A DNA stretch of 64,000 nt from Porphyridium purpureum (Eukaryota): positions 310,001 through 374,000 of the forward strand of contig VRMN01000010.1 of the NCBI GenBank assembly GCA_008690995.1. Reading direction: 5' to 3'. The notes under the pieces are model-generated. The model had not been told where the DNA came from. It made no database searches and was given only the letters and a program-made list of their open reading frames with translations. This document shows, one piece after another, positions 3,737-57,605 of the stretch (position 1 is its first letter; the number at the start of each line of letters is the position of its first letter). A program made the position numbers and the translations under genes.

Positions 3737-4279
3737 ATGAAAGGTCTGTGGGGTCCCTTCTACGCGATACGCATCGGGCGGAACTCGTTTCGCGGCGTGC
3801 TGCTGAAAGAGGATGAGTACCAGTTGATGCTGAAGGGCGAAAAGAACCCGATCGCGAGCATAAAGACGAGGCTGACACAGGCGATTGACTTCTGCCGGAC
3901 GCCGAAAGGCGGCGGCTGCTTGACGTGGTATGCATTTCGACACGGCAAGAAGGGTGCGCGGGGGTTTGTCAAGACGAAGGAAAATCTCGAGATCATCAAG
4001 GAGCGCGTGGATGGACCAATGCTTGAGACACATCTCTTTGCGAACGCAACGCAGGCTATAGTGTTCTGTCAGCAGGCTGGAACATCCAGCAAAGACTGGA
4101 AGAAGTTTGGCAAGTCGATCAACTTTCTTTCACAGAACAAGGACCTTTCTGTTCCAATCATGTGGTCCGAGTTTTGGGTCAAAAATGCCGAGCGAGGCGC
4201 GATTCGCACCGGTCCGATTCCACTAAGCAATCCTTCGCTCATGGAAGCACTCGAGAAAGGCTGGGATTCGGAAGATTGA
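3737..4279 (+). CDS. Double-HBD family member 1 (module only, no evident presequence)
   Basis: GPFYAIRIGRNSFRGV...YAFRHGKKGARG...NATQAIVFCQQAGT..DW...GP. Confidence 0.8.
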   Translation: MKGLWGPFYAIRIGRNSFRGVLLKEDEYQLMLKGEKNPIASIKTRLTQAIDFCRTPKGGGCLTWYAFRHGKKGARGFVKTKENLEIIKERVDGPMLETHLFANATQAIVFCQQAGTSSKDWKKFGKSINFLSQNKDLSVPIMWSEFWVKNAERGAIRTGPIPLSNPSLMEALEKGWDSED

Positions 4280-4870
4280 GCGATACTTTCGCGCTCAGCT
4301 GAAGCTTGCAGCTCGCGCTTCGCACAGCAAAAAAACAAAAAGAGAAACAGAAAGAGAGTCAGAGTGGAAAGGTCGCATCGGGCACACGTACACGAGGAAG
4401 TATCGCACGCAACGCAAGTCATGCGCAGGACAGTCATGAAGCACAATGCGGCGTGAATTATTTTGCCGTCCGGTGTGTATCCGTCTTGCTTATGATTCGA
4501 AAAGCGGTCTTCAAGAAGTGCGTCATACGCAGGTAAGGCTATGGCGTGCAGCATACGCGTGCAGTCTTTCACCATAGCCTGTTGTCCTGTAGATCAAAGT
4601 CTCAGAAAGACTGCACTAGCGCTGATTTTAGGAAAATCACGAGACAAATCCAGGGTTAGATGCCAATATCGTCACTCGCTTCCTCCTTTGACACGTCCCC
4701 ATGCTCATACCGCGGCCACATGATCGACTCTGTCGTAGTTGGGTTAAATAAGGATTCTTTCTCAGCACGCCCTTGCCCTTGGCGTCCGTTCGCGACGATT
4801 GCAGTCTGTCTCAGGTGAAGCACGCGCGCGTGCGCGCGCAGCGGTAGCAGGCCTCCGAGCATGCGCGGAC

Positions 4871-6868
4871 ATGTTCCTCTTCCGCTCAGTGCAGCTCGCA
4901 CGAGCTAAACGCCTCGAGTCCCTCTGGGATGGAGCACCTTGGCCTCGGCCGGGCAGCGTCGAGGCCTCGAAGAAACGAGCTTTGAAGAAGTCTGGCAAGC
5001 GCGCAAAGCCTGGGAACGGCTCTGATCCAGGCCATGACGGGATCGCCGGGCCATTCTACGCAGTGCGGATTGGACCGGGCGGCTTCCGGGGCGTCATGCT
5101 CCGGAACGCAGAGTACCAGGCCCTGTTGAGTGTGGTGGTCCCGGCGAGAGGGAAAAAGATCGTGGAGCTGAGCGAAGCGCAGGAATATTACCGAGGCGGA
5201 GACAGGAGAGGAATTCCGCCCAACTTCTTTGCGTTTCGGTATGGGAAGGACGGCGCCAGAGGGGTTGTCGTGGGCCCAAGGCATTTGAGGCATATTCAGA
5301 AACGCGTGTCTTCGCCGAGTTTCCAGGTAGAGGAGTTTGATAACGCAACGCAAGCCATGATTTACTGCCAGCAGGCTGGCACGCCTCTTGAAGATTGGAA
5401 AGATGTCTGCGACTCACTGAAGTACCTGGCCAATAACCCCAGTCTGTACATTCCCAATTTGTGGGCAGACTTTTTGGTGCAGAAGACGTTGACAGGTCTC
5501 CTTCCGCGTGGCCCTCTCGTGCCTCCAGATTTGTCTATGGATCCAGCGTGTCCGTCCGGCGAGCTTCCGGGTTTCATGGATCCCATGTCTGCCAATGCGA
5601 AAGCATTTTGGTGTAGCCCGCCTCTGCCACCTCTCTACTACCCGAAAGTCAACAAGCTTGGGATGGTTTTGGACGAAACGAGGCTTGACCTCGATGCACA
5701 AAAGCGAGGCCCCTTCTACGCGATTCGCTGCGGTCGCGGCTGGTTTCGAGGCGTGGTCCTGAAGAAGGAGGACTACAAAGAACTGCTGCGAGGGGCCAAG
5801 GTTGCGAAGGGACGGAAAGAAGAAACACTGACTGAAGCCCTTGCTTTCTGCCGGAGGCGCAAGCCGCGTGGCAGCCTCACTTTTCATGCGTTCCGATATG
5901 GCAAAAATGGCGCCCGAGGTATCGTCCTTGCGCCGGATACCCTCGAGAAGATAGAGAGACGCGTGGGCTCGCCCTTCTTTCAGACGCAACGATTTCAAAC
6001 CGCAACGCAGGCAATCATCTTTTGTCAGCAAGCCGGTACCTCTTCTGTCGACTGGAGGAAACCCGGCAGAGCCATCCGTTATCTTGCGGACAATCCGAGT
6101 CTGGATGTGCCGAGTTTATGGTCTGACTTCCTAGTCAAGAGTTGGCGAAGACCCACTCTTTCGTGTGGCCCGCTGCCTGTTCACCGCACCGCTCCACCGG
6201 TACGCGCACATCCACCGGATTCTCATGTCGAGCAACAAACAAATGTAGCTGTTGCTGCAGACGCAGAGAGCATGGAAGAAGGGCAGCCACTTGCTCAGGC
6301 CCCGCTTCCGGGGACCGTTGATGAAAATCGAGCAACAGCCCGGTTGACGGACGTTGAGGCACGGGACTTTGCTGAGAAGCTCATGCCTTTAAAGGGCCCC
6401 TTTTATGTCATTCGGCGGGGACAGGGCTCGTTTCGAGGCGTGGTGCTGAGAAAGGACGAGTTCCGAGACATAATGGGAGGGCAAAGGGCTTCTATCGGAC
6501 GACGTATAGACTCGTTCCTCGACGCACTCGCAGAATGCCGAAATCCTAAAGGAGGTTGCCATTTATTCTTTGCCTTTCGATATGGCAAGGATGGCGCGCG
6601 CGGACTTGTCAAGACGAGAGAGAACCTGGAGATAGTGCTCGAGCAAGTATATTCTCCTTCGGTTCAGAAGAGGGTATTCCCAACTGCCACGCAAGCACTG
6701 GTCTTTTGCGAACAGGCCGGCACCAAGTACAAGGATTGGAAACGCCTGGGCAGGTCGGTCCGATTCTTCGTGCAGAATCCGCATCTCCGTACGCCGACTT
6801 TGTGGTCCCGCTACTTCATCAGAAGACCGGGACGAAGCCTTGTCATGACGGGTCCCTCCCTCATATAA
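4871..6868 (+). CDS. Double-HBD family member 2 (three tandem modules)
   Basis: Three complete GPFY..FRGV / FAFRYG..GARG / TQA..C.QAGT..DW units; start codon uncertain (first in-frame ATG 4871). Confidence 0.85.
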   Translation: MFLFRSVQLARAKRLESLWDGAPWPRPGSVEASKKRALKKSGKRAKPGNGSDPGHDGIAGPFYAVRIGPGGFRGVMLRNAEYQALLSVVVPARGKKIVELSEAQEYYRGGDRRGIPPNFFAFRYGKDGARGVVVGPRHLRHIQKRVSSPSFQVEEFDNATQAMIYCQQAGTPLEDWKDVCDSLKYLANNPSLYIPNLWADFLVQKTLTGLLPRGPLVPPDLSMDPACPSGELPGFMDPMSANAKAFWCSPPLPPLYYPKVNKLGMVLDETRLDLDAQKRGPFYAIRCGRGWFRGVVLKKEDYKELLRGAKVAKGRKEETLTEALAFCRRRKPRGSLTFHAFRYGKNGARGIVLAPDTLEKIERRVGSPFFQTQRFQTATQAIIFCQQAGTSSVDWRKPGRAIRYLADNPSLDVPSLWSDFLVKSWRRPTLSCGPLPVHRTAPPVRAHPPDSHVEQQTNVAVAADAESMEEGQPLAQAPLPGTVDENRATARLTDVEARDFAEKLMPLKGPFYVIRRGQGSFRGVVLRKDEFRDIMGGQRASIGRRIDSFLDALAECRNPKGGCHLFFAFRYGKDGARGLVKTRENLEIVLEQVYSPSVQKRVFPTATQALVFCEQAGTKYKDWKRLGRSVRFFVQNPHLRTPTLWSRYFIRRPGRSLVMTGPSLI

Positions 6869-7211: not shown

Positions 7212-8096
7212 ATGCTGGGGCGCTGTTTGGGCCGGGGACATTACTGGCACGTCGATGTCTTAAGGGGCGTGCTTGACACGCCGCACTGGATACATACGAG
7301 TGCCGTGACGCTGAATCAACCCAGAGTGCGGATCAAATTGAACCCGGATGATTTCCCCAAGCTGGAAAGGGAGAATGATAATCCGTATCATGAGCTGACG
7401 CTCGAAGAGAAACGTGCAAGGGTCCGTACAGAAGACTACGACTTGGGCAAGTTGAAGCTCGTCAACAAGTTTTATGCAATTCGGAAAGGCAAGCACTCGT
7501 TCCGAGGCGTGGTTTTCACGGCAAAGGAGTACGGCTCTTTGGTGCTCGGCATCAAAAATTTCAAAGGCGAACGCGTTGATCACGGTCTAGATAGAGCCAT
7601 CGACTATTGTATGTCCGAGAGGTTCAAGAACCAGAAGCGTTATCCCGCACCACAGTTTGACGCGTTCCGGTATGGCGTCAACGGCGCAAGAGGCATTGTT
7701 GTAAAACCAAACTGTTTTCAGCATGTGCTAGCGCGAGCCGTCTCGCCTCATACAGAGATCGAGTCGTTCCCCACTGCGACGCAAGCGCTGGTGTATTGCG
7801 TCCAGGCCGGCACGCCGTATACAGATTGGGAGGCGCTGGATAGCTCGCTTGTGTTTATGTCATACATGCATCTACAAACGCCAATCTTGTGGTCGAAGTA
7901 CCTGATCATGTACGCGAACAGCGAGCTACCAACCGGCCCGCTCTGTCACCCGGATCCGCCGACGGACAGTTCCACAGTTCAACGGCCCAAGAAAAAGCAG
8001 CCTGCTGTCCTCGAGATCCCGTTTGTGGGCCATGTGCCAGAAGGCTCTGACAGCTCGTCCGGAATTTTTCCGTTGGCCGACCAAGTCGAAGAGTAA
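7212..8096 (+). CDS. Double-HBD family member 3 (presequence + module)
   Basis: PHWIHTSAVTL presequence motif; FYAIRKGKHSFRGVV; FDAFRYGVNGARG; TQALVYCVQAGT..DW. Confidence 0.85.
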   Translation: MLGRCLGRGHYWHVDVLRGVLDTPHWIHTSAVTLNQPRVRIKLNPDDFPKLERENDNPYHELTLEEKRARVRTEDYDLGKLKLVNKFYAIRKGKHSFRGVVFTAKEYGSLVLGIKNFKGERVDHGLDRAIDYCMSERFKNQKRYPAPQFDAFRYGVNGARGIVVKPNCFQHVLARAVSPHTEIESFPTATQALVYCVQAGTPYTDWEALDSSLVFMSYMHLQTPILWSKYLIMYANSELPTGPLCHPDPPTDSSTVQRPKKKQPAVLEIPFVGHVPEGSDSSSGIFPLADQVEE

Positions 8097-8646: not shown

Positions 8647-11304
8647 ATGTTGAAAGGATGCATCGGATATGAGATATTCCGCCGCATCCGTGTTTCCCGC
8701 GAGGTGTTTGATGCGCCGCGATGGATCCATGCTAGCGCCGCGGCGCTCAAGAAGAAAAGATTCTGCAAAGCGCGTGCGGGTGGGTTGAAACCAGACAATC
8801 GTCACGAGGGCACGTTCTATGCGATCCGTGTTGGCCGCGACTTGTTCCGCGGCATCGTGTTGAGACACGATGATTACGTGAACTTGATGCGCGGCGCAAT
8901 GAGTGCTAAAGGTCAATCGTTCCGTTTGGCGTTTGACAAAGCCAAGGAGTATTGTATGTCCGGAAGGGGTGGCGGCGCGCAGCGTTTTTATGCGTTCCGG
9001 TACGGCCTTCATGGCGCACGAGGGATCGCGGTACGCAAGCCAGACTTTCAGCATGCCACGAAACGCGCCAATTCGCCTGCTCTCCAGAAGGAGGTGTTTG
9101 CGACCGCAACGCAAGCGATAGTGTATTGTGAACAGGCCGGTACTCCGTTGACAGACTCGAAAGATCTACGCGCATCACTGCGGTTTCTGACGCAAAACAG
9201 GAATCTGCGCGTGTCAAGTTTGTGGTCGCGATATCTGATCCACGGCGACATGAAGGGCCTTTCGCCCAGTGGCCCATTGTACCATCCAGAATCGCCCATC
9301 GCGGAGACCGAACGCCCAAGAGTTGTTGCAGAATCGGCTGCTCTTTCTCCAGCCGCTCTACCTGCTGAATCTACCACTGACACCGGCATAGGTGCCGCGA
9401 CGGTCGGTGATCCCATCAAGGTGCTGGCGCATGAAACCAGCGCAGTCGCGCGTGCGCTTGATCGTGAAGCGTTGGATGATGCTGTGAGGATATCGCAGTC
9501 TCTGCTTAGTTTCGTGGAAAAGCTGCACAAGCAAGTCTTGGATGCCCGGAACGTGAAAGAGCGAGCGGAAAGGCATCGAAAAACACTAGCAGAAATGGAG
9601 CTCATGGCAAAAGAACGCAGTCGATCCATCCTCGAAGCAACAGGAAATGTCGAAACAGCCCGTAACGCAGAGCGCATTGAGGCGTACATTCAAGGAGAAG
9701 CTTTGCCGCGCGATATGAAGGGCTTCACAGCCGTTGCAATGCTTCACTCAGTCCTTCACTTTAGCGAGAGAGACACGAAGCCGCCGATAGGTGTGGATGC
9801 AAGCCGTCTGTTCGTTTCAAGCGAAGCCGCTTCTATCGCGAGGAATTTCAGCATAGCTGGAAGCACGGACACCGCGAAGAAGACTGGCGATCGGGTTGAA
9901 CTTGAGGCGTTGTTGCTGGCTCTCAACTACTTCATTCTGAGGTATTTGGACACTGGCGAGGAAAGCGTGAAACGAATAGTGCTGAAAACGCGCAGCCGGT
10001 ACTGTCTTTCGCGGTGCAACACGTACTTGCCCAAGTGGCGAGCAAAGGGCTGGCGGATGAGCTACAAAGTGAAACATCAAGACCTTTGGGAGGTTTTCGA
10101 TACGCGACTTTTGATACTGCGGTCTGTTTGTGACGTCTCATTCGAGCTTGGAGCTTTTGATGAGCATGCGTTTCACCATTCCCCCACAGTGGGTGGCGGT
10201 GCAGACTTTGCAACGAGAAGTCTTTGGAGCAGCACATACCGCCAAAGTCTTTCGGAAGTTCTTGTCGATGGCTCATTCAGACTATCGCGGATGGGGCGGG
10301 ACAAGGCAAGGATTGGCGTGTATTTCGGGAGTGATTCGTCGTGTAATGTGGCCGCCGTGTGGCCCATCAGTCTTGTGAAACCCAGGACTTCAATGCAAGT
10401 CGAGGTTCTCGCGGCAATTTGCGGACTGGACCAAATTCTGCGCTACACGCTAGCCGGGTCGCGATCGGTACTGCCTTCGACAGAAGAGGTTGTACTTTAC
10501 ACGGACTTCAATACCACACCAAAATTGATCGCCCAGCTGGATGCGTTATGGGCTGATGACCTCGAAACGAACCCTGGGCATCTGTGGAAATGGACCATGG
10601 GACTTTCTGGTGGACAAAATGGCTTGTACCATTCGCAGAATGAGCTGGAAAATCATGCGAGAGGACTTGGTGAGCGGCCTGGCAGAACTGCGCCGCTTTT
10701 TGATTTGCTGACGCCCTTGTATCTTCGGGTACTTCTCGTGCGATGCTTGCGATGGTTGCAAGTGATGTGGGTACCCCGCGAGTCCAACAAGCATGCTCAT
10801 AAGCTAGCTGGCATTGCAAGTGAACTTACGTACAACCAGCAGAACCAGCGAGTCGTCGATGTTGTGGGCGCTCAGATACAGAACTCCCGTCGCATCGAGC
10901 TGGACCGCAATATCATTGCGTCGCTCCACTGCCATCCACGCCTCGCAGAGATGGTGGCACCCATGCCTGGCGTGGCGCAGGAGCTCGAGAATGCTGACGT
11001 AACAGCTGAGAGCACTGATGATGATGATGAGGATCCAAACGCTGGCTCAGACGGTAGTGCTACGGACCAGGACTTTTGGGTCGCTCCAAAGGAACCGGAA
11101 CCGGTGCTCACGGATTCTGACATGGACACGGATGCAGTGAACGAAGAGCGCGAGCCGTCGAATTCGACCATTGACCCTGATTTTCTGATGAAGGACACAT
11201 GGCAGGCGCGAACGGGTTCCGACATTGAGATGGATGACTCAGATTTGGACTCGGATAGGGACGACCACATGTACTACTTTGAGCACGCGTTTGACTCGGA
11301 CTAA
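8647..11304 (+). CDS. Double-HBD family member 4: presequence + module + helical linker + RNase H-like A + RNase H-like B + acidic tail
   Basis: RWIHASAAAL; module; A: AYIQG, ELEALLLAL, LKTRSRYC, KWRAKGW..VKHQDLW; B: VLVDGS, IGVYFGSDSSCNVA, VEVLAA, LYTDF, WVPRESNKHAHKLA. Confidence 0.88.
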   Translation: MLKGCIGYEIFRRIRVSREVFDAPRWIHASAAALKKKRFCKARAGGLKPDNRHEGTFYAIRVGRDLFRGIVLRHDDYVNLMRGAMSAKGQSFRLAFDKAKEYCMSGRGGGAQRFYAFRYGLHGARGIAVRKPDFQHATKRANSPALQKEVFATATQAIVYCEQAGTPLTDSKDLRASLRFLTQNRNLRVSSLWSRYLIHGDMKGLSPSGPLYHPESPIAETERPRVVAESAALSPAALPAESTTDTGIGAATVGDPIKVLAHETSAVARALDREALDDAVRISQSLLSFVEKLHKQVLDARNVKERAERHRKTLAEMELMAKERSRSILEATGNVETARNAERIEAYIQGEALPRDMKGFTAVAMLHSVLHFSERDTKPPIGVDASRLFVSSEAASIARNFSIAGSTDTAKKTGDRVELEALLLALNYFILRYLDTGEESVKRIVLKTRSRYCLSRCNTYLPKWRAKGWRMSYKVKHQDLWEVFDTRLLILRSVCDVSFELGAFDEHAFHHSPTVGGGADFATRSLWSSTYRQSLSEVLVDGSFRLSRMGRDKARIGVYFGSDSSCNVAAVWPISLVKPRTSMQVEVLAAICGLDQILRYTLAGSRSVLPSTEEVVLYTDFNTTPKLIAQLDALWADDLETNPGHLWKWTMGLSGGQNGLYHSQNELENHARGLGERPGRTAPLFDLLTPLYLRVLLVRCLRWLQVMWVPRESNKHAHKLAGIASELTYNQQNQRVVDVVGAQIQNSRRIELDRNIIASLHCHPRLAEMVAPMPGVAQELENADVTAESTDDDDEDPNAGSDGSATDQDFWVAPKEPEPVLTDSDMDTDAVNEEREPSNSTIDPDFLMKDTWQARTGSDIEMDDSDLDSDRDDHMYYFEHAFDSD

Positions 11305-11413: not shown

Positions 11414-14005
11414 ATGTTGAAATGCGCTGGCAGTAGATGTTTTCGTATTCTCCGCATCACGCGTGCGACCGCACGCCGAGGCATTCACAGCGGGCGCCCG
11501 GAATGGGAAGCGACGCCGGTGGCGCCGGCGTCCGGTCCTCCGCTGGACGGTCCGTTTTACGCGATAGTGAATGGACGTCACCAGTTCCGCGGCGTCGTGT
11601 TGCGCAAGATCGAGGCCGAAGAGCTGGTGAAACGGGATCCGATATCCATGATAGCAGGCCAGATGAGCCCGTTTGCGCACGCGATGCCGACCGAGACGCT
11701 CAAGGAGGCGATCGATTTCTGCTCAGGCGGACGGGGCGCAAATGAATTTTTTGCATTTCGTCACGGGTTGCGCGGTGCACGCGGCATTGTGGTGAAGCCA
11801 AGCGTCTTTTATCGAGTAAGCATGCGGGCGCGGGCGCGCTCGTTCGAGGTTAGAGTCTTTGACAACACGACCCAAGCTCTGATTTTCTGCGAGCAGGCGG
11901 GAACAATGGAGACTGACTGGGAGAGCATGGAGAAAGCCGTCTCCTTCCTGGCTAGAAATCCACAGCTGCATTCGCCCGCGCTGCTGGAGAAATTTGTGGT
12001 CAAGCGAAAGGATGCAAGTCTTCCAAGCGGTCCTCTTCCGATCACCAAAGAACAGATCGATTCCAATCATCAAGGCGCACAACGCTCAGTCGCCGAAAGT
12101 GTGGTCCGATTCCTGACCAGTCGTCCCGTAACCGCTATGGCTCACGAAGTTGTCAGTATTGCTGCGAAGCTTGACGTCCAGCGGCTCAATCAGATTTCCG
12201 ATAAGACACGCGATCTGCTCGGCCTGATGCAGAGGCTTCATGTGACTGCGGTGAGAGCTCTGGAAGCAAAGGCCAGAGAAGAAGATGAACGGCGGACAAG
12301 GGAGTGTGCGCGAAGAGCGCTCGAGGAAGCGTCAATCAAAGCCGATGAGTACCATGCCATACATGCCGAGGCCTACATCCATGGGATGGCTATCGACTGT
12401 TCCGCGACATCGTGCAATGCAGCTGCCGCGCTGTACCTGGTTCAGCACCTTTCTGGCAAGGATGGCATTCGCCCTGTCCACGTGCATGCAACTCGTCTTT
12501 TCGAATCCAGCGAGCACATGGAGCCATGGATGCAATCAAGTGACGACGTGAATCACTTGATACCAAATCGATCCAGCGATCTGCTAGAGGTCGAAGCGCT
12601 TTTATTGACGCTGAACTATTTTATCCTCCACTACCTGGACAATGGAACGTACAGGCTCGAACGTTTGACCTTGAGAACAAAGAGCAAGTACTGTGCGTCG
12701 CGATGCAATACGTACCTCCCAAAGTGGAGGGACAAGGGCTGGAAGATGAGTTACAAGGTGAAGCATCAGGAGCTCTGGCAAGCCGTCGATACTCGACTGC
12801 TGCTTTTGAAATCTCTTTGCGAGGTCACGATCGAGTGGACGTCTTCTGACGATCAACACTGGGATCAAGCGCCTTTTCGCCCTTCGACAAGTGATCTTCG
12901 ATTGCTTTCTGACTGGCTCTGTGAGCAAGACCCGCAAGAAGCTGGCAAAAGAGCGGAAGGCGCTTTGATCCCTGTAAGTGGCCTTGATTTTGCAACCAGA
13001 GGCGTCTGGAGCGATAGTCATACCCAATCCTTCGACTACGTGCATGTTGATGCCTCGCACACTCCAAAGGGACTGAACAGAGCCAAGGCAAGTTTAGGAG
13101 TGCATTTTGGAATCGCAGATTCGCGCAATGTTGCTGCTTTGTGTCCTTCGAACCTGACCGAAGTTGAAGGCTCGTACGGAGTGGAGCTTTTGGCTGCGGC
13201 TTGTGGTCTCGACCAAATTTTGCGCTTCACTTTGGCCGGCTCACCCCATGTGGAGCCAAAGCTAAACGCAGTGACACTGTTTTCTGACTTTCGCCCCTTC
13301 GCAGAGCAACTCGCTGAAATTGATGCTTGCTGGACCGAAGGTTTCGACCTGGCCAAGACAGGGATGTCTCCCTTGTCTGGTCGTTTCTCTGCTATTTGGA
13401 TAGTCATGTATGTGCGCATACTTCTAATACGATACTTTCGACCCTTGATCATCAAGTGGAAGCCCCGCGAGACCAATGAGGCCGCGCACGAGCTTGCGCT
13501 TGTCGGAAAAGATGAAGCATATGACTGCATCCACAACCAGCGCATCGTCAATACGGTGGGTGCGCACGTGCAAAGCACCGAGCATCATGCGCTGGACATG
13601 AAGCTTATTGCATTTCTGCTTCAGATACCAAAGGTCTTTGATGCGACGAGGGAGCATCTAGCCATGTACGGAAGCGAATTGATGACGAGCATGGACTCCT
13701 CGGCTCCATCCAATGACGACAGCGCGATCTTCGATTCTTATCGTCCAGCTCGCGGAAACGAAGCTCTAGCGGGTACTACCATGGACTCCGAAGAGCTTTT
13801 CCACGCTCATGCTCGGTCCGACGACGATGAGCCTGGGGCTGCATCCGACGCAGACTGGAAAGACGACTTCTACTCCTTTCCCGGAGAGACCGAGTCGGAT
13901 GAGTTCACGGACGAATACGGCATGGTGAATGATGAGTCGCCCGCGGATCCTCTAGATGACGATGCGTCCGACATGTGGAGCTATCTGGGCAGGTTCTACG
14001 AGTAG
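11414..14005 (+). CDS. Double-HBD family member 5: presequence + module + RNase H-like A + B + acidic tail
   Basis: RRGIHSG; module; A: AYIHG, EVEALLLTL, TKSKYC, KWRDKGW; B: VHVDAS, LGVHFGIADSRNVA, VELLAA, FSDF, WKPRETNEAAHELA. Confidence 0.88.
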   Translation: MLKCAGSRCFRILRITRATARRGIHSGRPEWEATPVAPASGPPLDGPFYAIVNGRHQFRGVVLRKIEAEELVKRDPISMIAGQMSPFAHAMPTETLKEAIDFCSGGRGANEFFAFRHGLRGARGIVVKPSVFYRVSMRARARSFEVRVFDNTTQALIFCEQAGTMETDWESMEKAVSFLARNPQLHSPALLEKFVVKRKDASLPSGPLPITKEQIDSNHQGAQRSVAESVVRFLTSRPVTAMAHEVVSIAAKLDVQRLNQISDKTRDLLGLMQRLHVTAVRALEAKAREEDERRTRECARRALEEASIKADEYHAIHAEAYIHGMAIDCSATSCNAAAALYLVQHLSGKDGIRPVHVHATRLFESSEHMEPWMQSSDDVNHLIPNRSSDLLEVEALLLTLNYFILHYLDNGTYRLERLTLRTKSKYCASRCNTYLPKWRDKGWKMSYKVKHQELWQAVDTRLLLLKSLCEVTIEWTSSDDQHWDQAPFRPSTSDLRLLSDWLCEQDPQEAGKRAEGALIPVSGLDFATRGVWSDSHTQSFDYVHVDASHTPKGLNRAKASLGVHFGIADSRNVAALCPSNLTEVEGSYGVELLAAACGLDQILRFTLAGSPHVEPKLNAVTLFSDFRPFAEQLAEIDACWTEGFDLAKTGMSPLSGRFSAIWIVMYVRILLIRYFRPLIIKWKPRETNEAAHELALVGKDEAYDCIHNQRIVNTVGAHVQSTEHHALDMKLIAFLLQIPKVFDATREHLAMYGSELMTSMDSSAPSNDDSAIFDSYRPARGNEALAGTTMDSEELFHAHARSDDDEPGAASDADWKDDFYSFPGETESDEFTDEYGMVNDESPADPLDDDASDMWSYLGRFYE

Positions 14006-16829: not shown

Positions 16830-16887
16830 TACTAGGTCTGACCTGTAAAATGTATAGCGGCGCGCTTGCGTCCACTGCACCTTGTCC

Positions 16888-31361: not shown

Positions 31362-31397
31362 CACGGCTCTGTCGTCCGAGCTGGAGCACGTCAACAA

Positions 31398-39524: not shown

Positions 39525-39554
39525 GCCGCCACTTGCTTCTTGGTGGCGAAGCCT
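39421..39554 (+). repeat. Perfect 63-bp direct repeat (39421-39483 and 39492-39554)
   Basis: ttgtcgtccgcaagaatgatgcgcgtcttgtgagccgccacttgcttcttggtggcgaagcct twice, 8-nt spacer. Confidence 0.92.
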
Positions 39555-43872: not shown

Positions 43873-43920
43873 ACAACTCGACAACTCGACAACTCGACTT
43901 ATCGACTTATCGACTTATCG
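43873..43920. repeat. 8-bp tandem repeat (ACAACTCG)x3 (ACTTATCG)x3
   Basis: Read directly from the sequence. Confidence 0.85.
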
Positions 43921-44014
43921 GTTCCGCTTTTTGAACGTTTGAACGGCGCGACGCATTGGTGGACGCGAGCGACAGAAGAGGAAGCAAGAGAATGAAGGAG
44001 CCTTTCTGCTGCTC

Positions 44015-44037
44015 TGTGTGTGTGTGTGTGTGTGTGT
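44015..44037. repeat. (TG)n microsatellite
   Basis: tgtgtgtgtgtgtgtgtgtgtgt. Confidence 0.8.
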
Positions 44038-44083
44038 TTGAGTGTTTGGATATGTCTCTAGACGCAGACATGCAACTCGGCGC

Positions 44084-51355: not shown

Positions 51356-52066
51356 ATGCTTTTGCGGCTGGCACGACATCGTTTCTTGACGCATCGGTCA
51401 CTCCACGACATCCGCGTCGCGGTCGCGACTGGAGTATCGGCGTTGACCCCGGCTGGGTACGTCCACACGTGCGCAGTGGCGCCGAAGGCAAAGACGCTCG
51501 AAGCGGAAGACGACGACGGACCGCGCGTGGGCCCTGGCGGCGCTGTGAAGTGGTCGCATTTGGCTCCTGAAGGAGTGGAAGATGACGACGAGGACGAGCT
51601 GCCTGGCCCGTTCTACGCGATTCGGCATGGGCGTGACAAGTTCCGCGGCGTCGTTGTGCGACCGAAGGAGCATATTGCTCTCATCCAGGGAGTGAAGGAT
51701 TCGTACGGACGCAAGGAAGAGACGCTGGAAAAGGCCATCCGCTCTTATCAGCATCACAGTGACCAATCGTGGCGACGATTCTTCGCCTTCCGGCTCGGCG
51801 GCGCTGAAGGTGTGTCAAGAGGCATTGTCGTGACGCAGCCGACTTGGAAGCTGATAGCAAAGCGCGTAGAGTCGCGGACGCTCGAAAAGGTAGAGTTCAA
51901 CAACATGACTCAAGCGCTGGTGTTCTGCGAACAGGCCGGGACACCGGGCACCGACTGGCACACCCTGGAACGCGCGATCCGGTTTCTAGCGAGGAAACCC
52001 GAGTTGAGTACTCCCGACATGATGGACAAGTACATCATGCGGATTTCCGACTTGTGCCTGTTCTAG
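51356..52066 (+). CDS. Double-HBD family member 22
   Basis: MLLRLARHRF...GYVHTCAVA; GPFYAIRHGRDKFRGVV; FFAFRLGGAEGVSRG; NMTQALVFCEQAGT..DW. Confidence 0.87.
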   Translation: MLLRLARHRFLTHRSLHDIRVAVATGVSALTPAGYVHTCAVAPKAKTLEAEDDDGPRVGPGGAVKWSHLAPEGVEDDDEDELPGPFYAIRHGRDKFRGVVVRPKEHIALIQGVKDSYGRKEETLEKAIRSYQHHSDQSWRRFFAFRLGGAEGVSRGIVVTQPTWKLIAKRVESRTLEKVEFNNMTQALVFCEQAGTPGTDWHTLERAIRFLARKPELSTPDMMDKYIMRISDLCLF

Positions 52067-52296: not shown

Positions 52297-54735
52297 ATGA
52301 CCCGATGGCCAGTCGGATCGAGATGGATACAGCGACCCATCATCATGACACACCGCGCGGTGCACGCAATCGCGTTGCCGAGTGGCTGGCTGCGAGGCAT
52401 GCACTCTTGTGCATTGGCTCTGAAACGAGCGACAAATGGAGCCGTACAGGAGGAAGGGCAAACGCCACATCAGCACATGGATTGGGCCTCTGAATTCGGA
52501 CGCGCCGTGGATGAGGATGGCAAGTCGTCCTCAAGCAGCGACACGGACACGGAGCTGACGACAGGCGGCTCGTCGACCAGGCTGAACAGCAGGCGTGATG
52601 AAGACACCGACGGTTTCCACGGCGAGCAGACAGATGGCCAGCTTGCAGGCAAGAATGTTGAAACAATTGGCGATGATACATCGCATGTAGCCGATGGCGA
52701 TGGCGACGTTGACACGAATACGTTGGCGGCGGGTCCGTTCTATGCCATTCGGTATGGGCGCAACTCATTTCGAGGCGTCGTAAAGGACGTCAACGTTTTT
52801 CTCGAATTGATCCGAGGAGAGAGAAAAACAAGGGTGAAGGCTGGGCTGCAGCCGTCGCTGGAAAGGGCGATGGAGTTCTGTCTCATGGGTCGTCCTGATG
52901 CACCATTGGGGAGTTCTTTTTTCGCGTTTCGCTATGGGAAGAAAGGCGCGCGAGGAATCACAATCACCGAGCGCATGTTTAAAACGATTCTCCCTCGCAT
53001 CGAAGCGCCATCGCTGGAAGTATTTCGGTTCAATAACACAATGCAACCGCTTGTTTTCTGCGAGCAGGCAGGAACCTCGCAAACGGATTGGAAGTCACTG
53101 CGAGCATCGATCTTATTTCTGGCAAAGCCCGAGCCCAAGGTTCCCATTCCCAAATTGCTGTACAAGTACGTGATTAAGAAAGAAACCACCCAACTGCAGA
53201 AAGGACCACCCAATCCTGCTGGTCCCAAGCCTGCGGATACAGAGCATCAGCCTACTACTACGGAAGACACGGCGACCAGCGCGACATCGGCAAATATCGG
53301 CCTTGAAGATGAATCTTTTGTCGAGGCCGTGAATGCATTGGTGGGTGACGTGAGGCAGTTTGCCCAAAGGCTCGATGCCGAAGCGTTGGATCATGTGCTC
53401 GAGATTGTAGGAAAACTGCGCGGCACTGTTGGTGACTTCACAGCTGTCGCGGAACAAGCACTGGAAAAAAGACTGCAGCTCGCAGATGCAAATGTCAGAG
53501 CGCCTATTCCCGTGCACGAGGAAAGTCCGCTAGACCGTGGCTCAGTCGACTCGGACAAGCTTGTGCATGTTGAAAGCCCAAAACCCCTGCTCGTAAGCAG
53601 TGCGAAGCACATTGATGCTTATATTGAAGGCTCTTATGTCGAGTATCCCGACGCGGAGCACAATGCGGTCGCAAAGCTTCGTGTCGCGTATCATTTTGGC
53701 GACATGAGTTCGTCAATCCAGTATCATGTCGGTGAGAAAGCTTTTCGTCTGTTCCAGTCGAGCGACGATGTGCAGACCACTGAGGATCTCGTGGAGCTCG
53801 AAGCACTCGTGCAAGCTCTGAATTATTTCATCGTGCGCTTTTTCGACACTCCCGAGGAGCATGCAATGAAGAGTATGACCTTGAAATCGCGCAGCATGTA
53901 TTGCATTTCCCGGTGCAATGAATTCATTCCAAGGTGGCGACAAGATCGCTGGCGTTTGACGGCTGCTATGCAACATATGGCGCTCTGGTCAGCTTTTGAT
54001 GCCCGGCTGATGTTCGTGGAAGCTTTTTCAACTGTGAAATTTGAGTTGTGGGTCGATGGCGAGCCTGAAACTGACATCAAATCATCGTCTGGGCGTGCAG
54101 CAGGTCCTCGAGTAGGACCTGCCAGCCTTCATGCGTCATCGGGCGGTCAAGGAATGGAACACGAAATGAAAGTGAGTCTTGAGGACGACAACTCGAGCTT
54201 GAGAAGAGCTTGGAGCGTGGGACAACCTGGGCATATTGACAAGGTGCTTGTGGACACAAGGTTCGACGAACACGGGAGGCTAATGGTCCGAGTGTTTTTC
54301 GGTGACGGCGATCCTCGCAACGTTTGCGCGACGTGTTCACTACTACTGTCAGAAGCTTGGAATAAGCGCAAAGCCAGCATGTTCGCGTTAGCGTGCGGCT
54401 TGGACCAAATCTTGCGTCACACATTGGTCAGTTCTCACTCGGCTTTTGCAAAGCAGAGCGATGTGGTCGTCTGTGCGAAGGGTTTGAAAGCTGAAGACGT
54501 AGAATCACATTTGAGAGAGCTATCAACGAGCTTCCCTGCTTTGCGTGTAGCCCTGTCTCTTCGCCTAAGGCTGCTGAAGAAGTTGCGAGGTATCGAGGTG
54601 CTCGAGTTTACAGACCAAGAGAGCGAAATAACAATATCGAACGTGCAGAACGAACGCGTGGTGAGCACGATCCTGTCACAGCTGCGGAGCAGCAAAAGAC
54701 TCGAACTTGACCGTAAGATCCTCGTTGCCATGTAA
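52297..54735 (+). CDS. Double-HBD family member 23: presequence + module + RNase H-like A + degenerate B
   Basis: RGMHSCALALK; module; A: HIDAYIEG, ELEALVQAL, SRSMYC, RWRQDRW; B: VLVDTR, VFFGDGDPRNV, ACGLDQILRHTL. Confidence 0.85.
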   Translation: MTRWPVGSRWIQRPIIMTHRAVHAIALPSGWLRGMHSCALALKRATNGAVQEEGQTPHQHMDWASEFGRAVDEDGKSSSSSDTDTELTTGGSSTRLNSRRDEDTDGFHGEQTDGQLAGKNVETIGDDTSHVADGDGDVDTNTLAAGPFYAIRYGRNSFRGVVKDVNVFLELIRGERKTRVKAGLQPSLERAMEFCLMGRPDAPLGSSFFAFRYGKKGARGITITERMFKTILPRIEAPSLEVFRFNNTMQPLVFCEQAGTSQTDWKSLRASILFLAKPEPKVPIPKLLYKYVIKKETTQLQKGPPNPAGPKPADTEHQPTTTEDTATSATSANIGLEDESFVEAVNALVGDVRQFAQRLDAEALDHVLEIVGKLRGTVGDFTAVAEQALEKRLQLADANVRAPIPVHEESPLDRGSVDSDKLVHVESPKPLLVSSAKHIDAYIEGSYVEYPDAEHNAVAKLRVAYHFGDMSSSIQYHVGEKAFRLFQSSDDVQTTEDLVELEALVQALNYFIVRFFDTPEEHAMKSMTLKSRSMYCISRCNEFIPRWRQDRWRLTAAMQHMALWSAFDARLMFVEAFSTVKFELWVDGEPETDIKSSSGRAAGPRVGPASLHASSGGQGMEHEMKVSLEDDNSSLRRAWSVGQPGHIDKVLVDTRFDEHGRLMVRVFFGDGDPRNVCATCSLLLSEAWNKRKASMFALACGLDQILRHTLVSSHSAFAKQSDVVVCAKGLKAEDVESHLRELSTSFPALRVALSLRLRLLKKLRGIEVLEFTDQESEITISNVQNERVVSTILSQLRSSKRLELDRKILVAM

Positions 54736-54863
54736 TCTAGGTGCGCGCGCTGTGTGGAAACCGAGCTTCATCCGTAGTCCACCACGACGGAACAAGACGG
54801 GTTCCCTGAGCTCATGACAATCATTCGAGCATCATAAAGTAAAAACCGCGCGACTTGCTGGAG

Positions 54864-57605
54864 ATGGTCGCGTGGCCCACGAGACACCGATGCACACACT
54901 TTGTTACGCGCCACGTGGTAGAGGCCGGCGGCAAGCCGGCGAGCGGCGTTGAAAAGCAGCGAGCTTTGCACAGCTGCGCGGTTTCGCGGAATGGGAACAG
55001 AGGCCAGCGTCAAAGCGACGCGGAAACAGCGGCTTTCCGCGGTGAAAGGAATAGAAGTGAGCCAAAGCTTGCCGCGGAGCGCACCTCGCCATCCGGGCCG
55101 CCAAGCAAACTGGTCGGTCCGTTTTACGCGATTCGGAATGGTCTCGATTCTTTTCGAGGTGTAGTAATGAGACAAAGTGAGTTTCATGAGCTCAGTGCCA
55201 ACGCGCCCAACGCAGAAACACGAATCGAGCCAGCGCTGGCGCAGGCCATGGAGTATTGTCTTGCGCCAAGTGACAAGGCGCCGGCGACATTTTTCGCATT
55301 CCGCCACGGATTGGACGCTGCACGTGGGATCATGCTTTCGTACGACATCGTCAGACGAGTCCTGCCTCGCGTCCAGACGCCGACGATTGAAAGGTTACAG
55401 TTCTGCAACATGGTGCAACCGTTGGTGTTTTGCCACCAGGCCGACACTGGCGGCACTGACTGGCACTCTCTCGAAGGATCTCTTGGATATTTGGCGCGCC
55501 ATCCGAGTTTGAGCGTTCCTGTGCTGATGTCACAGTTCGTGGTTTGCCAAAGAGATGGCGGCGCTCTCAGTGATTTATTGAAAGAAGACGTGCGACGTCC
55601 TCAATTTTTTGCCTTTCGTCGTGGCTTCTTTGGTGCGCGAGGAGTCGCGATCTCGAAGGAGGTGTTTCAAGGCATCTTGCCCCGGATCAAGTCGCCAACG
55701 CTGGAAACCGCGCGTTTCAACAACCTGGTGCAGCCCTTGGTCTTCTGCGACCAGGCTGCAACCACCAAAACGGATTGGCACACATGGGAGAGGTCTCTTC
55801 GCTGCTTGTCGAGAGACTCGAACCCGGCGATCTTTCGCGATCTGATGTCTGAATATATGGTCAAGCACCCAGAAGTTCAACTTGCAAAGGGTCCGGAGCG
55901 CGCGGAGAGCGAACCAGAAGTAGACGCGCCGTGTGGGCGACGTATGGTGACTGATTCCTTGGCGTCTGCTGTGTACCGCAGGCACGATGCAGCGGACCAG
56001 TATCTGGAATCCACACCTTTGGATCCCAAAGCAGACATAGAACTTATCCGCGTGATGCAAGAGGTAGCTCTGAACCAAGGGCGCGGTGATCGTACGGCGC
56101 CGCATGTCAAGCGCATAGATGCCTACGTGCGAGGGTCCTCGGTTGTCCGGTCCGATGACGCGAACGGGATCGCAATGCTGCTTCTAGATTATCATGTGGA
56201 CGATGAAAAGGGATCCGTCATGCATGCGGGTGCTCGGCGTCTATTTCATTCGACACATGCTTCGTGCCTGGAAAAGGAGTCAAAAGACTCGCAGCGATCG
56301 CCACCGCAAGAGTTTTTGGAGCTCGAAGCGCTCGTGCTAGCCCTGAACTTTTTCATATTGCGCCACCTTGACACAGAAGGGCAGAGCGTCGAGAGATTGA
56401 CGCTCAAGACGCAAAGCTCCTACTGCGTTTCCTGCTGCAATGCATTTCTCCCTAAATGGAGGGAGAAAGATGGACGCATACGTCCTGGTGTCATACCGCG
56501 TCGCCCCAAGACGGGAAAGTCCAAAGCAAAGCGGATCCCGCAGCAAAATATAAAGCAGTGGCGACGGCAGATGAGATCCAAGCGGCGGAAGAGAAGGTTG
56601 GCCGTGTTGAGGCAAATGAGGGATGCCGAAGCACGGTCGAACCCTCTACAAAGACTCTGGGAGGCCATTGACACACGCCTTATGATTTTGAGAGCCTTTT
56701 GCCAGGTGTCTATTGAGCAGTGGGATCCGCGACTAGGCGGCCTAGACCAACGAGCCTTCAGTCTTTCCGGGAAAGGGATGGAGCAGCACGGAATTGCTCT
56801 GTGTGATGACCATGCGAACTCAAAAGCCCGAGAAGGAATCCCCTTCCGTATCGAAGGTTATGATGATGACGTAGATAAGGTTACAAGGAGCCGTTGGAGC
56901 GATTGGAATCCGAACATTGGCAGCATCGATCAGGTACTCGTTGATGCTTGTTATGAACCCAAGCGCGGAAGATCGACAGTAGCCGCGTATGTGGGCGAAA
57001 GGGATACGCGCAACGTTGCCGGCATCTGGACGCTGGACCGCGACTTGGGCCCCCGGGATGAAATTGGATGGGGTTTGCAGCATGCTGAGATGCTTGCCAT
57101 CGTGTGCGGGTTGGACCAGATCCTTCGAAGCACGTTAAGTGGCGCTCGCTGCACCGACTCACAGTTGCGTGGTGCGTTGCTATTGAGTAACTTGACTCAG
57201 GTGCGAGACGGCCTGGAGAATCTGGAAGCTCGCTGGGTCATTGACCTGCGTGAAAATCCAGGTGCCTTGAGAAAAGTCAAGCGCTCTCCGCAATTTGCTG
57301 GAAAGTTTCGCAGTCTGTGGATTGCCATATTTGCGCGCGTACTCCTCATCCGATGCTTCCGACGCGTGCGAGTAGGTTTTCGGGCGCGCGAGAACTTGAT
57401 CCAGGCCACACGACTCGTTGTGTCGACAACCAATGCTGCGCTGGCGTCAAATCAGGGGGTCATTGATGCGCAACTTGAACAGCTCGGGAGTAGGACGCGG
57501 TTAGCGCTGGACTGTGAGCTGATTGCTTCGCTCCACAATGTACACAAACTTCCGGGCTCGCCGCTTCGGTCCGACAACTTCTTCGTGGGCAATAAACACA
57601 AATAG
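54864..57605 (+). CDS. Double-HBD family member 24: presequence + 1.5 modules + RNase H-like A (basic insertion) + B
   Basis: RALHSCAV; full module, then a second FFAFRRG..GARG...QPLVFCDQA..DW half; A: RIDAYVRG, ELEALVLAL, TQSSYC; B: VLVDAC, YVGERDTRNVA, AEMLAI. Confidence 0.85.
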   Translation: MVAWPTRHRCTHFVTRHVVEAGGKPASGVEKQRALHSCAVSRNGNRGQRQSDAETAAFRGERNRSEPKLAAERTSPSGPPSKLVGPFYAIRNGLDSFRGVVMRQSEFHELSANAPNAETRIEPALAQAMEYCLAPSDKAPATFFAFRHGLDAARGIMLSYDIVRRVLPRVQTPTIERLQFCNMVQPLVFCHQADTGGTDWHSLEGSLGYLARHPSLSVPVLMSQFVVCQRDGGALSDLLKEDVRRPQFFAFRRGFFGARGVAISKEVFQGILPRIKSPTLETARFNNLVQPLVFCDQAATTKTDWHTWERSLRCLSRDSNPAIFRDLMSEYMVKHPEVQLAKGPERAESEPEVDAPCGRRMVTDSLASAVYRRHDAADQYLESTPLDPKADIELIRVMQEVALNQGRGDRTAPHVKRIDAYVRGSSVVRSDDANGIAMLLLDYHVDDEKGSVMHAGARRLFHSTHASCLEKESKDSQRSPPQEFLELEALVLALNFFILRHLDTEGQSVERLTLKTQSSYCVSCCNAFLPKWREKDGRIRPGVIPRRPKTGKSKAKRIPQQNIKQWRRQMRSKRRKRRLAVLRQMRDAEARSNPLQRLWEAIDTRLMILRAFCQVSIEQWDPRLGGLDQRAFSLSGKGMEQHGIALCDDHANSKAREGIPFRIEGYDDDVDKVTRSRWSDWNPNIGSIDQVLVDACYEPKRGRSTVAAYVGERDTRNVAGIWTLDRDLGPRDEIGWGLQHAEMLAIVCGLDQILRSTLSGARCTDSQLRGALLLSNLTQVRDGLENLEARWVIDLRENPGALRKVKRSPQFAGKFRSLWIAIFARVLLIRCFRRVRVGFRARENLIQATRLVVSTTNAALASNQGVIDAQLEQLGSRTRLALDCELIASLHNVHKLPGSPLRSDNFFVGNKHK

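What the first reader, a model, noticed from the sequence alone, without database searches (positions are those of the whole stretch)
3737..57605. 54-kb co-oriented array of 24 paralogs built on a tandem RNase H1 hybrid-binding-domain (HBD) module
Seen: 24 + strand genes (about 29 full modules plus one half) share GPFYAIRxGRDxFRGVV-helix-EAxxFC / FFAFRxGxxGARG-helix-FxNxTQALVFCEQAGT-DW. Copies are strongly diverged yet almost all ORFs are intact. Knowledge: the RNase H1 N-terminal HBD (Cauli_VI, L9-N-like fold) has the pattern FYAVRxGRxxG[IV]...F.T..EA..F, binds RNA:DNA hybrids/dsRNA, and occurs twice in budding-yeast Rnh1; RNase H1 is usually single- or low-copy. Inference: each module is an HBD pair plus a family-specific C-terminal cap, and the family descends from an RNase H1 gene that expanded massively, mostly dropping the nuclease. 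I know of no described eukaryotic family of stand-alone HBD proteins expanded like this.
Basis: partly seen in the sequence, partly recalled or inferred. Interest (0 to 1): 0.92.

Follow-up and report, generated by a model that had tools for sequence, protein, structure and literature searches.

The report
Red alga's RNase H1-derived gene array
A single-celled red alga has multiplied an RNase H1-like gene (normally one enzyme that removes RNA paired with DNA) into 24 neighbouring, mostly nuclease-less copies, about half with a predicted mitochondrial import signal, which likely act as RNA-binding helpers for its exceptionally intron-rich mitochondrial genome.

Summary
Real, and richer than reported. 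24 + strand genes carry 29 full modules and one half. Named database proteins place the array in Porphyridium purpureum. The module folds confidently (pLDDT 94) into two RNase H1 hybrid-binding-domain (HBD) units plus a helical cap; unit 1 overlays the human HBD at 0.7 A. New here: (1) six genes keep RNase H-like domains, five as a tandem pair, first copy dead, second with an intact D-E-D triad in two genes; (2) 13 of 24 N-termini carry a mitochondrial-type cleavage motif R-x-hydrophobic-H-x-S/C, 0 of 48 off-frame controls; (3) the HBD residues that select DNA (W43, F58) are almost wholly lost. Copies are under purifying selection and probably transcribed. The capped module was found only in this species among 1.84 billion proteins. 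This alga's mitochondrial DNA has 46 introns but 14 intron-encoded proteins. Best reading: nuclear-encoded mitochondrial RNA-binding cofactors made from RNase H1; function untested.

The parts
3737..4279 (+). Gene 1, 180 aa: one module (3752-4219), no presequence
4871..6868 (+). Gene 2, 665 aa: three modules (5048-5515, 5708-6172, 6392-6856); FVE85_3592 is a variant model
7212..8096 (+). Gene 3, 294 aa: module 7464-7943; HWIHTS in N-terminus (loose motif)
8647..11304 (+). Gene 4, 885 aa: RWIHAS motif, module 8809-9279, helical linker, dead RNase H-like domain A (~9670-10190), RNase H-like domain B (~10250-10930) with D541/E586/D620 and His at the fourth site, acidic tail
11414..14005 (+). Gene 5, 863 aa from the Met used by NCBI (frame open from 11234): RGIHSG, module 11549-12037, domain A (12362-12967), domain B (12977-13630) with D-E-D and His
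14334..16829 (+). Gene 6, 831 aa: RWIHGS, module 14595-15053, dead domain A (~15500-16160), second module 16233-16721; no domain B
16888..19722 (+). Gene 7, 944 aa: module 17392-17853, domains A (18271-18945) and B (18952-19605); B lacks the first Asp (Lys)
19832..20809 (+). Gene 8, 325 aa: module 20090-20557, keeps part of the linker (20669-20788) but no RNase H domain
21303..22025 (+). Gene 9, 240 aa: RWIHAC, module 21507-21977
22659..23729 (+). Gene 10, 356 aa: RSIHAS, module 22914-23366
25783..26472 (+). Gene 11, 229 aa: module 25993-26469
26737..27282 (+). Module-less relic, 181 aa; N-terminus resembles that of gene 12 (32% over 56 aa, pairwise E 1e-5)
27447..28772 (+). Gene 12, 441 aa: RWMHSS, module 27759-28274, acidic tail
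29161..30459 (+). Gene 13, 432 aa: module 29407-29889, helical acidic tail
31398..32780 (+). Gene 14 (Met used by NCBI FVE85_3607; frame open from 31032): RSIHTS, module 31704-32186; 5' end overlaps the - strand Tpt1 gene
33883..34824 (+). Gene 15, 313 aa: RWIHAS, module 34168-34626
35419..36183 (+). Gene 16, 254 aa: GCFHTS (loose motif), module 35671-36132
36667..37698 (+). Gene 17, 343 aa: RAIHAS, module 36901-37380 (Pfam Cauli_VI E 0.085)
38205..39524 (+). Gene 18, 439 aa: RQLHAS, two modules (38508-38981, 38994-39461)
39900..40610 (+). Gene 19, 236 aa: RSLHTS, module 40185-40607 ending inside the cap; only unit that keeps W43
41107..42216 (+). Gene 20, 369 aa: RQIHSS, module 41374-41838 (Pfam Cauli_VI E 0.006, below cut-off)
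45658..47250 (+). Gene 21, 530 aa: RSFSTC, two modules (46081-46551, folded here; 46654-47142)
51356..52066 (+). Gene 22, 236 aa: module 51605-52048; RNA-like contigs of two studies span just this gene
52297..54735 (+). Gene 23, 812 aa: RGMHSC, module 52732-53208, domains A (53605-54162) and degenerate B (54187-54732)
54864..57605 (+). Gene 24, 913 aa: RALHSC, module 55116-55565, half module 55593-55895, domains A (56109-56846) and B (56871-57545; D, E, then Asn)

Best explanation
The array is a species-restricted tandem expansion of an RNase H1-derived gene whose products are predicted to be imported into mitochondria and likely act as non-cutting binders of structured RNA that help process the alga's intron-laden mitochondrial transcripts. 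Steps: (1, shown by profile and fold comparison) the ancestor was an algal-type RNase H1 with two HBDs; it gained a helical cap and a duplicated catalytic domain. (2, shown) It multiplied in place; 18 of 24 copies lost the RNase H domains, the first RNase H copy lost its catalytic aspartates in all six carriers, and two genes keep a possibly active second copy. (3, predicted from motif) An N-terminal presequence is cleaved at an R-10-type site after import. (4, inferred) With W43 and F58 gone but Y29/F, R32, R/K59 and a net positive charge mostly kept, the module would bind RNA helices rather than select RNA:DNA hybrids. (5, inferred, untested) Different paralogs would serve different introns or transcripts, supplying cofactors for the many introns that encode no protein of their own.
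For: Fold and homology. RNase H domains: HHalign 97% for both, VIA Z 12.0 for domain A. Catalytic residues. Five-residue hairpin loop in 26 of 29 first and 28 of 29 second units, 18 of 18 pattern-matched red-algal-clade HBDs, but 14 of 158 other HBDs. Motif R-x-[ILFMV]-H-x-[SC] in the first 45 aa of 13 of 24 genes (12 of 24 with the first Met), 0 of 24 in each other frame, 0 in 14,337 internal residues; published R-10 consensus RX(F/L/I)XX(T/S/G) (PMC11626719, passages) in 14 of 24 N-termini against 33 of 211 internal windows. Purifying selection: pS > pN in 406 of 406 pairs, median dN/dS 0.27 in the 209 unsaturated pairs; listed variants in modules 8 silent to 1 replacement. Module net charge positive in 25 of 29. 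Mitochondrial genome 132 kb, 46 introns, 14 intron-encoded proteins, no nuclear homologues of those proteins found by the authors (PMC8742464).
Against: No binding, localisation or splicing data. 11 of 24 genes lack the strict motif, gene 1 has no room for a presequence, and three of the four outlying family proteins inspected lack it. Arg-richness is not diagnostic: off-frame and upstream controls are nearly as Arg-rich (4.0-4.4 vs 4.6 per 30), so targeting rests on one motif inherited from one ancestor. No targeting predictor was available. The plastid is as intron-rich (43 introns), so the intron link does not single out mitochondria. Whether P. aerugineum (9 introns) lacks the family could not be tested. 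Loss of W43/F58 fits loss of all nucleic-acid binding equally well. Module versus non-module variant ratio is only p 0.06.
Confidence: 0.42

Rival explanations
1. Subfunctionalised mitochondrial RNase H1 system: the proteins still recognise RNA:DNA hybrids and manage R-loops and replication primers on the repeat-rich mitochondrial DNA, genes 4 and 5 cutting, the rest acting as hybrid-binding adaptors.
For: Ancestral function of RNase H1; D-E-D triad kept in domain B of genes 4 and 5; no canonical P. purpureum RNase H1 among the 120 listed of 161 hits to a red-algal-type RNase H1, so these genes may be the species' RNase H1; 23-kb repeat-rich intergenic region in the mitogenome.
Against: DNA-selecting residues W43 and F58 (PMC9603397, passages) kept in 1 and 0 of 58 units against 22 of 22 and 21 of 22 in canonical algal HBDs; domain B lacks the G-H-x-G loop and has His at the fourth acidic site; 24+ paralogs are hard to justify for a sequence-blind job.
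Confidence: 0.22
2. Host defence against mobile group II introns: dead or partial RNase H1 copies bind the intron RNA:cDNA intermediate and block the RNA removal that retrohoming needs, and diversify in an arms race with invading introns.
For: RNase H1 is needed for retrohoming in E. coli (PMC3636086, passages); recent intron invasion and self-proliferation in this mitogenome (PMC8742464 abstract); tandem, fast-diverging, species-restricted clusters are typical of conflict genes (general knowledge); positions W43 and the RNA-loop are among the most variable columns.
Against: Needs hybrid binding, which the residue loss questions; no sign of positive selection was tested or seen (synonymous sites saturated in 197 of 406 pairs); the introns did spread.
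Confidence: 0.12
3. The module has become a protein-interaction or structural domain (for example a mitoribosome, RNA-granule or assembly factor) and no longer reads nucleic acid through the HBD surface.
For: Invariant residues are mostly glycines, buried aromatics and cap contacts; the binding-face columns are variable; 4 of 29 modules have net charge 0 or below; the fold also occurs in ribosomal protein L9 (title of 1qhk); the mitogenome of P. purpureum lists no ribosomal protein genes.
Against: R63 invariant, R70 invariant, R85 26 of 29, R36 17 of 29; median net charge +8.
Confidence: 0.14
4. Transposon- or retrovirus-derived debris, or a neutral duplication with little function.
For: Top Foldseek row for the two-domain model is foamy-virus reverse transcriptase, which also holds tandem RNase H folds; one relic gene lacks the module.
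Against: No reverse transcriptase, integrase or transposase family on 33 window proteins scanned; no inverted repeats of 30 bp or more, repeats confined to coding motifs; both domains match cellular RNase H1 motifs; open frames despite 39% identity; purifying selection.
Confidence: 0.04

Closest known systems
Two-HBD RNase H1 of red seaweeds (Chondrus crispus CDF35226.1; Eucheuma denticulatum EukProt P005949) and the related five-residue-loop RNase H1 of chlorarachniophytes
   Same: Two tandem HBDs ahead of an RNase H1 domain; same two-residue-longer hairpin loop.
   Different: Those are ordinary enzymes with W43, F/Y58, K59 and D-E-D-D intact; here a helical cap is fused to the HBD pair, the catalytic domain is duplicated or absent, and there are at least 27 capped paralogs.
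Human RNase H1 HBD (PDB 3bsu) and yeast Rnh1 N-terminal domain (1qhk); Pfam PF01693 Cauli_VI
   Same: Fold of unit 1: rmsd 0.7 A over 48 residues, Z 9.5; only three PDB sequence hits to the module profile, all HBDs (E 0.016-0.52).
   Different: Below Pfam's cut-off in all 24 proteins; aromatic DNA-reading patch lost.
Nucleus-encoded organellar RNA factors expanded in tandem: Chlamydomonas NCL OPR-RAP cluster, plant PPR, PORR (WTF9), CRM (mCSF1) splicing cofactors
   Same: Species-specific tandem expansion of organelle-targeted nucleic-acid-binding proteins (NCL tandem duplication: PMC13126933 passage); ORF-less organellar introns rely on nuclear cofactors (PMC3927076 passage).
   Different: Different fold altogether (no helical repeats); function here is untested; analogy only.
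Maize RNC1, a catalytically dead RNase III-domain protein used for chloroplast group II intron splicing (recalled; not found in passages of three papers searched)
   Same: A duplex-RNA nuclease turned into a non-cutting organellar RNA binder with tandem dead domains.
   Different: RNase III family, single gene, plastid; here RNase H1, a large array, predicted mitochondrial.
Retroviral reverse transcriptase connection plus RNase H domains (foamy virus 7o0g)
   Same: Dead RNase H fold followed by a live one.
   Different: No polymerase domain; sequence motifs are those of cellular RNase H1.

Membership tests
RNase H1 HBD / Cauli_VI (PF01693) | Three-strand, two-helix fold | tested here: met
   AF2 pLDDT 94, order E-E-H-E-H twice; unit 1 to 3bsu rmsd 0.7 A, Z 9.5. 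Unit 2 rests on the model's element order and HHalign 76%/98%.
RNase H1 HBD / Cauli_VI (PF01693) | Pfam gathering score 21 bits | tested here: not met
   Best 17.2 and 13.5 bits in 2 of 24 proteins.
RNase H1 HBD / Cauli_VI (PF01693) | DNA-reading aromatic groove W43 and F58 | tested here: not met
   W43 in 1 of 29 first and 0 of 29 second units; Phe/Tyr58 in 0 of 58 (His in 2); canonical algal HBDs 22 of 22 and 21 of 22.
RNase H1 HBD / Cauli_VI (PF01693) | Y29 and basic residue at 59/60 for phosphate contacts | tested here: inconclusive
   Unit 1: Y29 20 of 29 (F 7), K/R59 21 of 29; unit 2: Y29 5 of 29, K/R59 7 of 29.
RNase H1 HBD / Cauli_VI (PF01693) | Binds RNA:DNA hybrid in preference to dsRNA | not testable with these tools
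   Needs a binding assay.
Active RNase H1 | RNase H fold | tested here: met
   Six genes; HHalign 97% for A and B; A: VIA Z 12.0, rmsd 3.5 over 132; B modelled at lower confidence.
Active RNase H1 | D-E-D-D carboxylates, domain A | tested here: not met
   First Asp 0 of 6 (Q,H,Q,Q,E,R), Glu 5 of 6, second Asp 0 of 6, last helix absent.
Active RNase H1 | D-E-D-D carboxylates, domain B | tested here: inconclusive
   D-E-D in 2 of 5 (genes 4, 5), fourth site His; G-H-x-G loop missing. That E. coli D134H stays active is recalled; search found no paper.
Mitochondrial matrix precursors | R-10-type processing motif near the N-terminus | tested here: met
   Strict motif 13 of 24; consensus 14 of 24 vs 33 of 211 internal windows.
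Mitochondrial matrix precursors | Basic, acid-poor N-terminus | tested here: inconclusive
   Net +3.75, 1.4 acidic per 30 vs internal 0 and 3.8, but off-frame and upstream controls give +2.0 to +2.5 and 2.3-2.5.
Mitochondrial matrix precursors | Import shown by GFP or proteomics | not testable with these tools
   None available; six accessions absent from two supplementary files of PMC13126933, which covers alpha-solenoid candidates only.
Group II intron splicing cofactors | Binds intron RNA; loss impairs splicing | not testable with these tools
   Inferred from context only.
Retroelement | Reverse transcriptase, integrase or terminal repeats | tested here: not met
   None in Pfam scan of 33 window proteins or repeat scan.

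The most novel reading that the evidence does not exclude
Porphyridium purpureum answered a mass invasion of its mitochondrial genome by group II introns by turning RNase H1, the very host enzyme those introns need in order to spread, into a new ~30-member family of intron-specific RNA chaperones or inhibitors: a third, non-helical-repeat solution to organellar RNA control beside PPR and OPR proteins, with specificity set by the variable face of a fused double HBD.
Probability: 0.3. Interest if true: 0.88.

Novelty: new variant of a known kind. Interest (0 to 1): 0.66.

Why it matters
RNase H1 is normally a single housekeeping gene. A 24-gene array of capped double-HBD proteins, some with a dead-plus-live nuclease pair, is an undescribed architecture in the sources searched. 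If the proteins are mitochondrial RNA factors, they explain how an alga with 46 mitochondrial introns and only 14 intron-encoded proteins splices them, show host-intron coevolution written into the nuclear genome, and give 29 natural variants of the HBD (a widely used R-loop probe) for learning how that fold switches between hybrid and RNA recognition. The alga is transformable (PMC6110788, search listing), so the idea is directly testable.

Tried and rejected
No whole genome was held, so genome-wide copy number and the presence of a canonical RNase H1 in P. purpureum rest on protein searches only. A metagenome scan with the module pattern gave 144 pattern matches and no relative. Rfam: 0 matches in the window. 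Foldseek gave no E <= 0.001 row for the module; VIA listed no row for unit 2 or the cap alone, which says nothing about their folds since no separate model could be made. ESM Atlas hits for the module were Cauli_VI clusters at 0.85-0.86 with low recognition, a lead only. Profile scores of domains A and B against 104 canonical catalytic domains did not single out red seaweeds: A scored best on chlorarachniophyte-type and unnamed protist enzymes (41.7 bits vs 23.5 for Chondrus), B scored lower on the 8 red-clade rows than on the rest; the donor lineage is therefore only 'five-residue-loop algal/protist RNase H1'. The module tree is poorly resolved (4 of 29 inner branches starred); position-matched groups have support 89-90 only. 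dS is saturated in 197 of 406 pairs, so positive selection could not be tested. N-terminal Arg-richness was rejected as evidence after frame controls. Four RNA runs of other labelled organisms or samples held next to none of the words, which is no proof of absence. Literature searches found no description of the family: Porphyridium + RNase H, 13 of 13 listed; HBD/tandem/paralogs/mitochondrial targeting/RNase H1, 8 of 8; Cauli_VI, 4 of 5; P. purpureum + tandem/expansion/maturase, 15 of 16; judged from listings and abstracts' starts. The original HBD structure paper and the NCL cluster paper were not held; bioRxiv supplements were not visible and could bear on novelty. No complex prediction was run: the open question is RNA binding, which that tool does not score.


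Full report
Observation. Six-frame motif and HMM scans confirm 29 full modules (162-208 bits) and one half module in 24 + strand ORFs from 3737 to 57605; residue-shuffled frames give at most 4.8 bits. Identity between modules averages 39%. Four genes without the module and a 3.4-kb gap interrupt the array. Named records place the proteins in Porphyridium purpureum on one 768,875-bp contig, all annotated as hypothetical.

The module. AlphaFold2 on the 29-row alignment gives pLDDT 94, pTM 0.89, with strand-strand-helix-strand-helix twice and two further helices. Residues 1-50 overlay the human RNase H1 HBD (3bsu) at 0.7 A, Z 9.5; the next unrelated row has Z 2.5. The profile's only three PDB sequence hits are HBDs. 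Profile-profile comparison gives 99% for unit 1 and 76% for unit 2 against 22 algal HBDs, 98% between the units, and at most 3.8% for 30 column shuffles. Unit 2 is thus a likely but diverged HBD; no structure search row covers it alone. Pfam's cut-off is not reached in any of the 24 proteins.

Binding face. In human HBD, W43 and F58 form the groove for the DNA strand, Y29, R57 and K60 touch DNA phosphates and loop 51-55 reads RNA 2'-OH groups (PMC9603397, passages). Canonical algal HBDs keep W43 in 22 of 22 and Phe/Tyr58 in 21 of 22; the family keeps W43 in 1 of 58 units and Phe/Tyr58 in none, while unit 1 keeps Y/F29 in 27 of 29 and K/R59 in 21 of 29, and 25 of 29 modules are net positive. 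The numbering is carried over by alignment. Inference: hybrid selectivity is probably lost; general RNA-helix binding may remain, or binding may be gone.

RNase H domains. Six genes carry an RNase H-like domain A after a helical linker and five a second domain B. Both match 104 canonical RNase H1 catalytic domains at 97%. The two-domain model is of mixed confidence (pLDDT 62); domain A matches RNase H structures at Z up to 12.0, domain B only weakly. Domain A lacks the first and second aspartate in 6 of 6. Domain B keeps D-E-D in genes 4 and 5, with His at the fourth site and no G-H-x-G loop; the other three are defective. Gene 8 keeps a piece of the linker (13.5 bits, shuffles 5.3), which suggests loss of the nuclease part by truncation.

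Distribution and origin. HMMER over 1.84 billion representatives returned 42 proteins at E <= 0.001. The 28 best (E 5e-26 or better) are window proteins or their variant models, three capped paralogs further along the same contig (FVE85_3674-3676), and a 1063-aa protein with many HBDs plus domain A and part of B (FVE85_9155, with near-identical FVE85_5030, on other contigs). The remaining 14 match only HBD-sized stretches, one being a spurious repeat protein; the best are two-HBD RNase H1 enzymes of the clade that holds Chondrus and Eucheuma. A five-residue hairpin loop is shared by the family (26 of 29 and 28 of 29), that clade (18 of 18 units matching the pattern, of 22) and 14 of 158 other HBDs, among them chlorarachniophytes; 144 have three residues. 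The donor is an algal/protist-type RNase H1; catalytic-domain scores do not narrow it further. No canonical P. purpureum RNase H1 was among the 120 listed of 161 hits; that is weak, as the search is word-based. Whether other Porphyridiales proteomes are in the library was not checked. Neighbouring modules are more alike (Spearman -0.25 on non-independent pairs) and the tree groups them by position with modest support, as expected from local duplication.

Selection and expression. Codon positions 1, 2, 3 are 54, 60 and 35% identical; pS exceeds pN in 406 of 406 pairs; median dN/dS is 0.27 in 209 unsaturated pairs. Of the 80 variant rows shown (40 of 119, 40 of 91) I took the 38 in or beside family ORFs; 37 fell inside: 8 silent to 1 replacement in modules, 14 to 14 outside; p 2e-4 against an assumed 27% silent expectation, p 0.06 module versus outside. 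Twenty runs from 8 studies hold most of a 9.9-kb stretch, 2 on record as RNA. Seven of eight runs laid drop in depth in the non-coding gap; the flat one (X1) has 73-81 across it. Contigs of two studies start and stop within 7 bases of each other around gene 22 where X1 runs through. All are contigs, so this is a weak hint of transcription, not a measure.

Targeting. R-x-[ILFMV]-H-x-[SC] lies in the first 45 residues of 13 of 24 genes (12 with the first Met; two starts were taken from NCBI models), against 0 of 24 in each other frame, 0 in 14,337 internal residues and 14 other hits in about 128,000 six-frame positions. It fits the published R-10 processing consensus (PMC11626719, passages), met by 14 of 24 N-termini and 33 of 211 internal windows. 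FVE85_3676 has RGLHVS; 3674, 3675 and 9155 have no motif. Arg-richness alone is uninformative. Serine is not enriched (6.6 vs 7.3%), which argues against plastid transit peptides by recalled rules. The motif descends from one ancestor, but it persists amid otherwise unalignable N-termini. Targeting is predicted, not shown.

Context. The P. purpureum mitogenome is 132 kb with 46 introns and 14 intron-encoded proteins; P. aerugineum has 9 and 5 (PMC8742464, abstract, section 5 and passages). The plastid has 43 introns. ORF-less organellar introns depend on other cofactors (PMC3927076, passages); RNase H1 is required for retrohoming in E. coli (PMC3636086, passages; PMC3073962, one passage). Tandem species-specific organellar factors are known in Chlamydomonas, and P. 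purpureum has a 7-member organelle-targeted family with a reverse-transcriptase domain (PMC13126933, passages). PMC4166229 (passages) lists only RNase HII for red-algal organelles. PMC8393795 and PMC8995046 (passages) added nothing on this family.

Verdict. A genuine, selected, apparently species-restricted family derived from RNase H1. Origin and anatomy are well supported (about 0.9); mitochondrial location for a majority is likely (about 0.7); a role as RNA cofactors for mitochondrial introns or transcripts is the best single mechanism (0.42), ahead of hybrid/R-loop management (0.22), a protein-scaffold role (0.14), anti-retrohoming defence (0.12) and debris (0.04). It works like organellar RNA trans-factors by inference but belongs to none of their families; it is an HBD/RNase H1 descendant that fails the hybrid-reading and (mostly) catalytic tests. 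No description was found in four literature searches. Earlier scan notes hold nothing on this genome or sequence; two fungal RNase H clusters are unrelated analogues, unchecked.

Noticed in passing
window 30624-31502 (-) and 48248-50845 (+): Two of the four non-family genes inside the array look like the heal-and-seal RNA splicing/repair pair: a Tpt1/KptA RNA 2'-phosphotransferase (Pfam E 5e-48) and an 865-aa protein with T4-Rnl1-type ligase (E 0.001, below cut-off), P-loop kinase and two H-x-T motifs, read by eye as Trl1-like (label recalled). Co-location with RNase H1-derived genes may be chance; PDB and NCBIfam searches added nothing.
   Followed up: partly
proteins FVE85_9155 and FVE85_5030 (P0022, P0043), other contigs: Near-identical 1063-aa relatives with many uncapped HBDs, domain A and a domain B cut after its Glu; no presequence motif; may represent an early offshoot or a recent segmental duplicate.
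   Followed up: partly
FVE85_3674-3676 (P0018, P0027, P0028), same contig outside the window: Second mini-cluster of three capped paralogs, forming their own clade (support 100/99), with a long insertion in unit 1 and a shared C-terminal HPDRD-like end.
   Followed up: partly
window 39421-39554: Exact 63-bp repeat at 71-bp spacing at the end of gene 18; three of four runs laid skip the 71 bases, so it is an allele or an assembly artefact that changes the gene's C-terminus.
   Followed up: partly
window 24244-25515 (+): 423-aa Arg/Ala/Glu-rich ORF inside the array with no Pfam or NCBIfam match.
   Followed up: no
window 1760-2434 (-), 2519-4033 (-), 103-1503 (+): Left flank: RlmH-type SPOUT methyltransferase (E 8e-18), RING-finger protein whose long ORF overlaps gene 1 on the other strand, and a zinc-ribbon protein.
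   Followed up: no
window 57538-61722 (+): 1394-aa protein with a weak glycosyltransferase family 2 match (E 5e-4); loose contig ends at 57724 in three runs suggest a splice or different 5' end.
   Followed up: no
window 43860-44050: Short tandem heptamer repeats and a TG run in the non-coding gap; length differs in run X1.
   Followed up: no
window 53699: Three RNA-like runs show the same loose contig end inside gene 23, not seen in X1; unexplained (assembly join or a spliced form).
   Followed up: no
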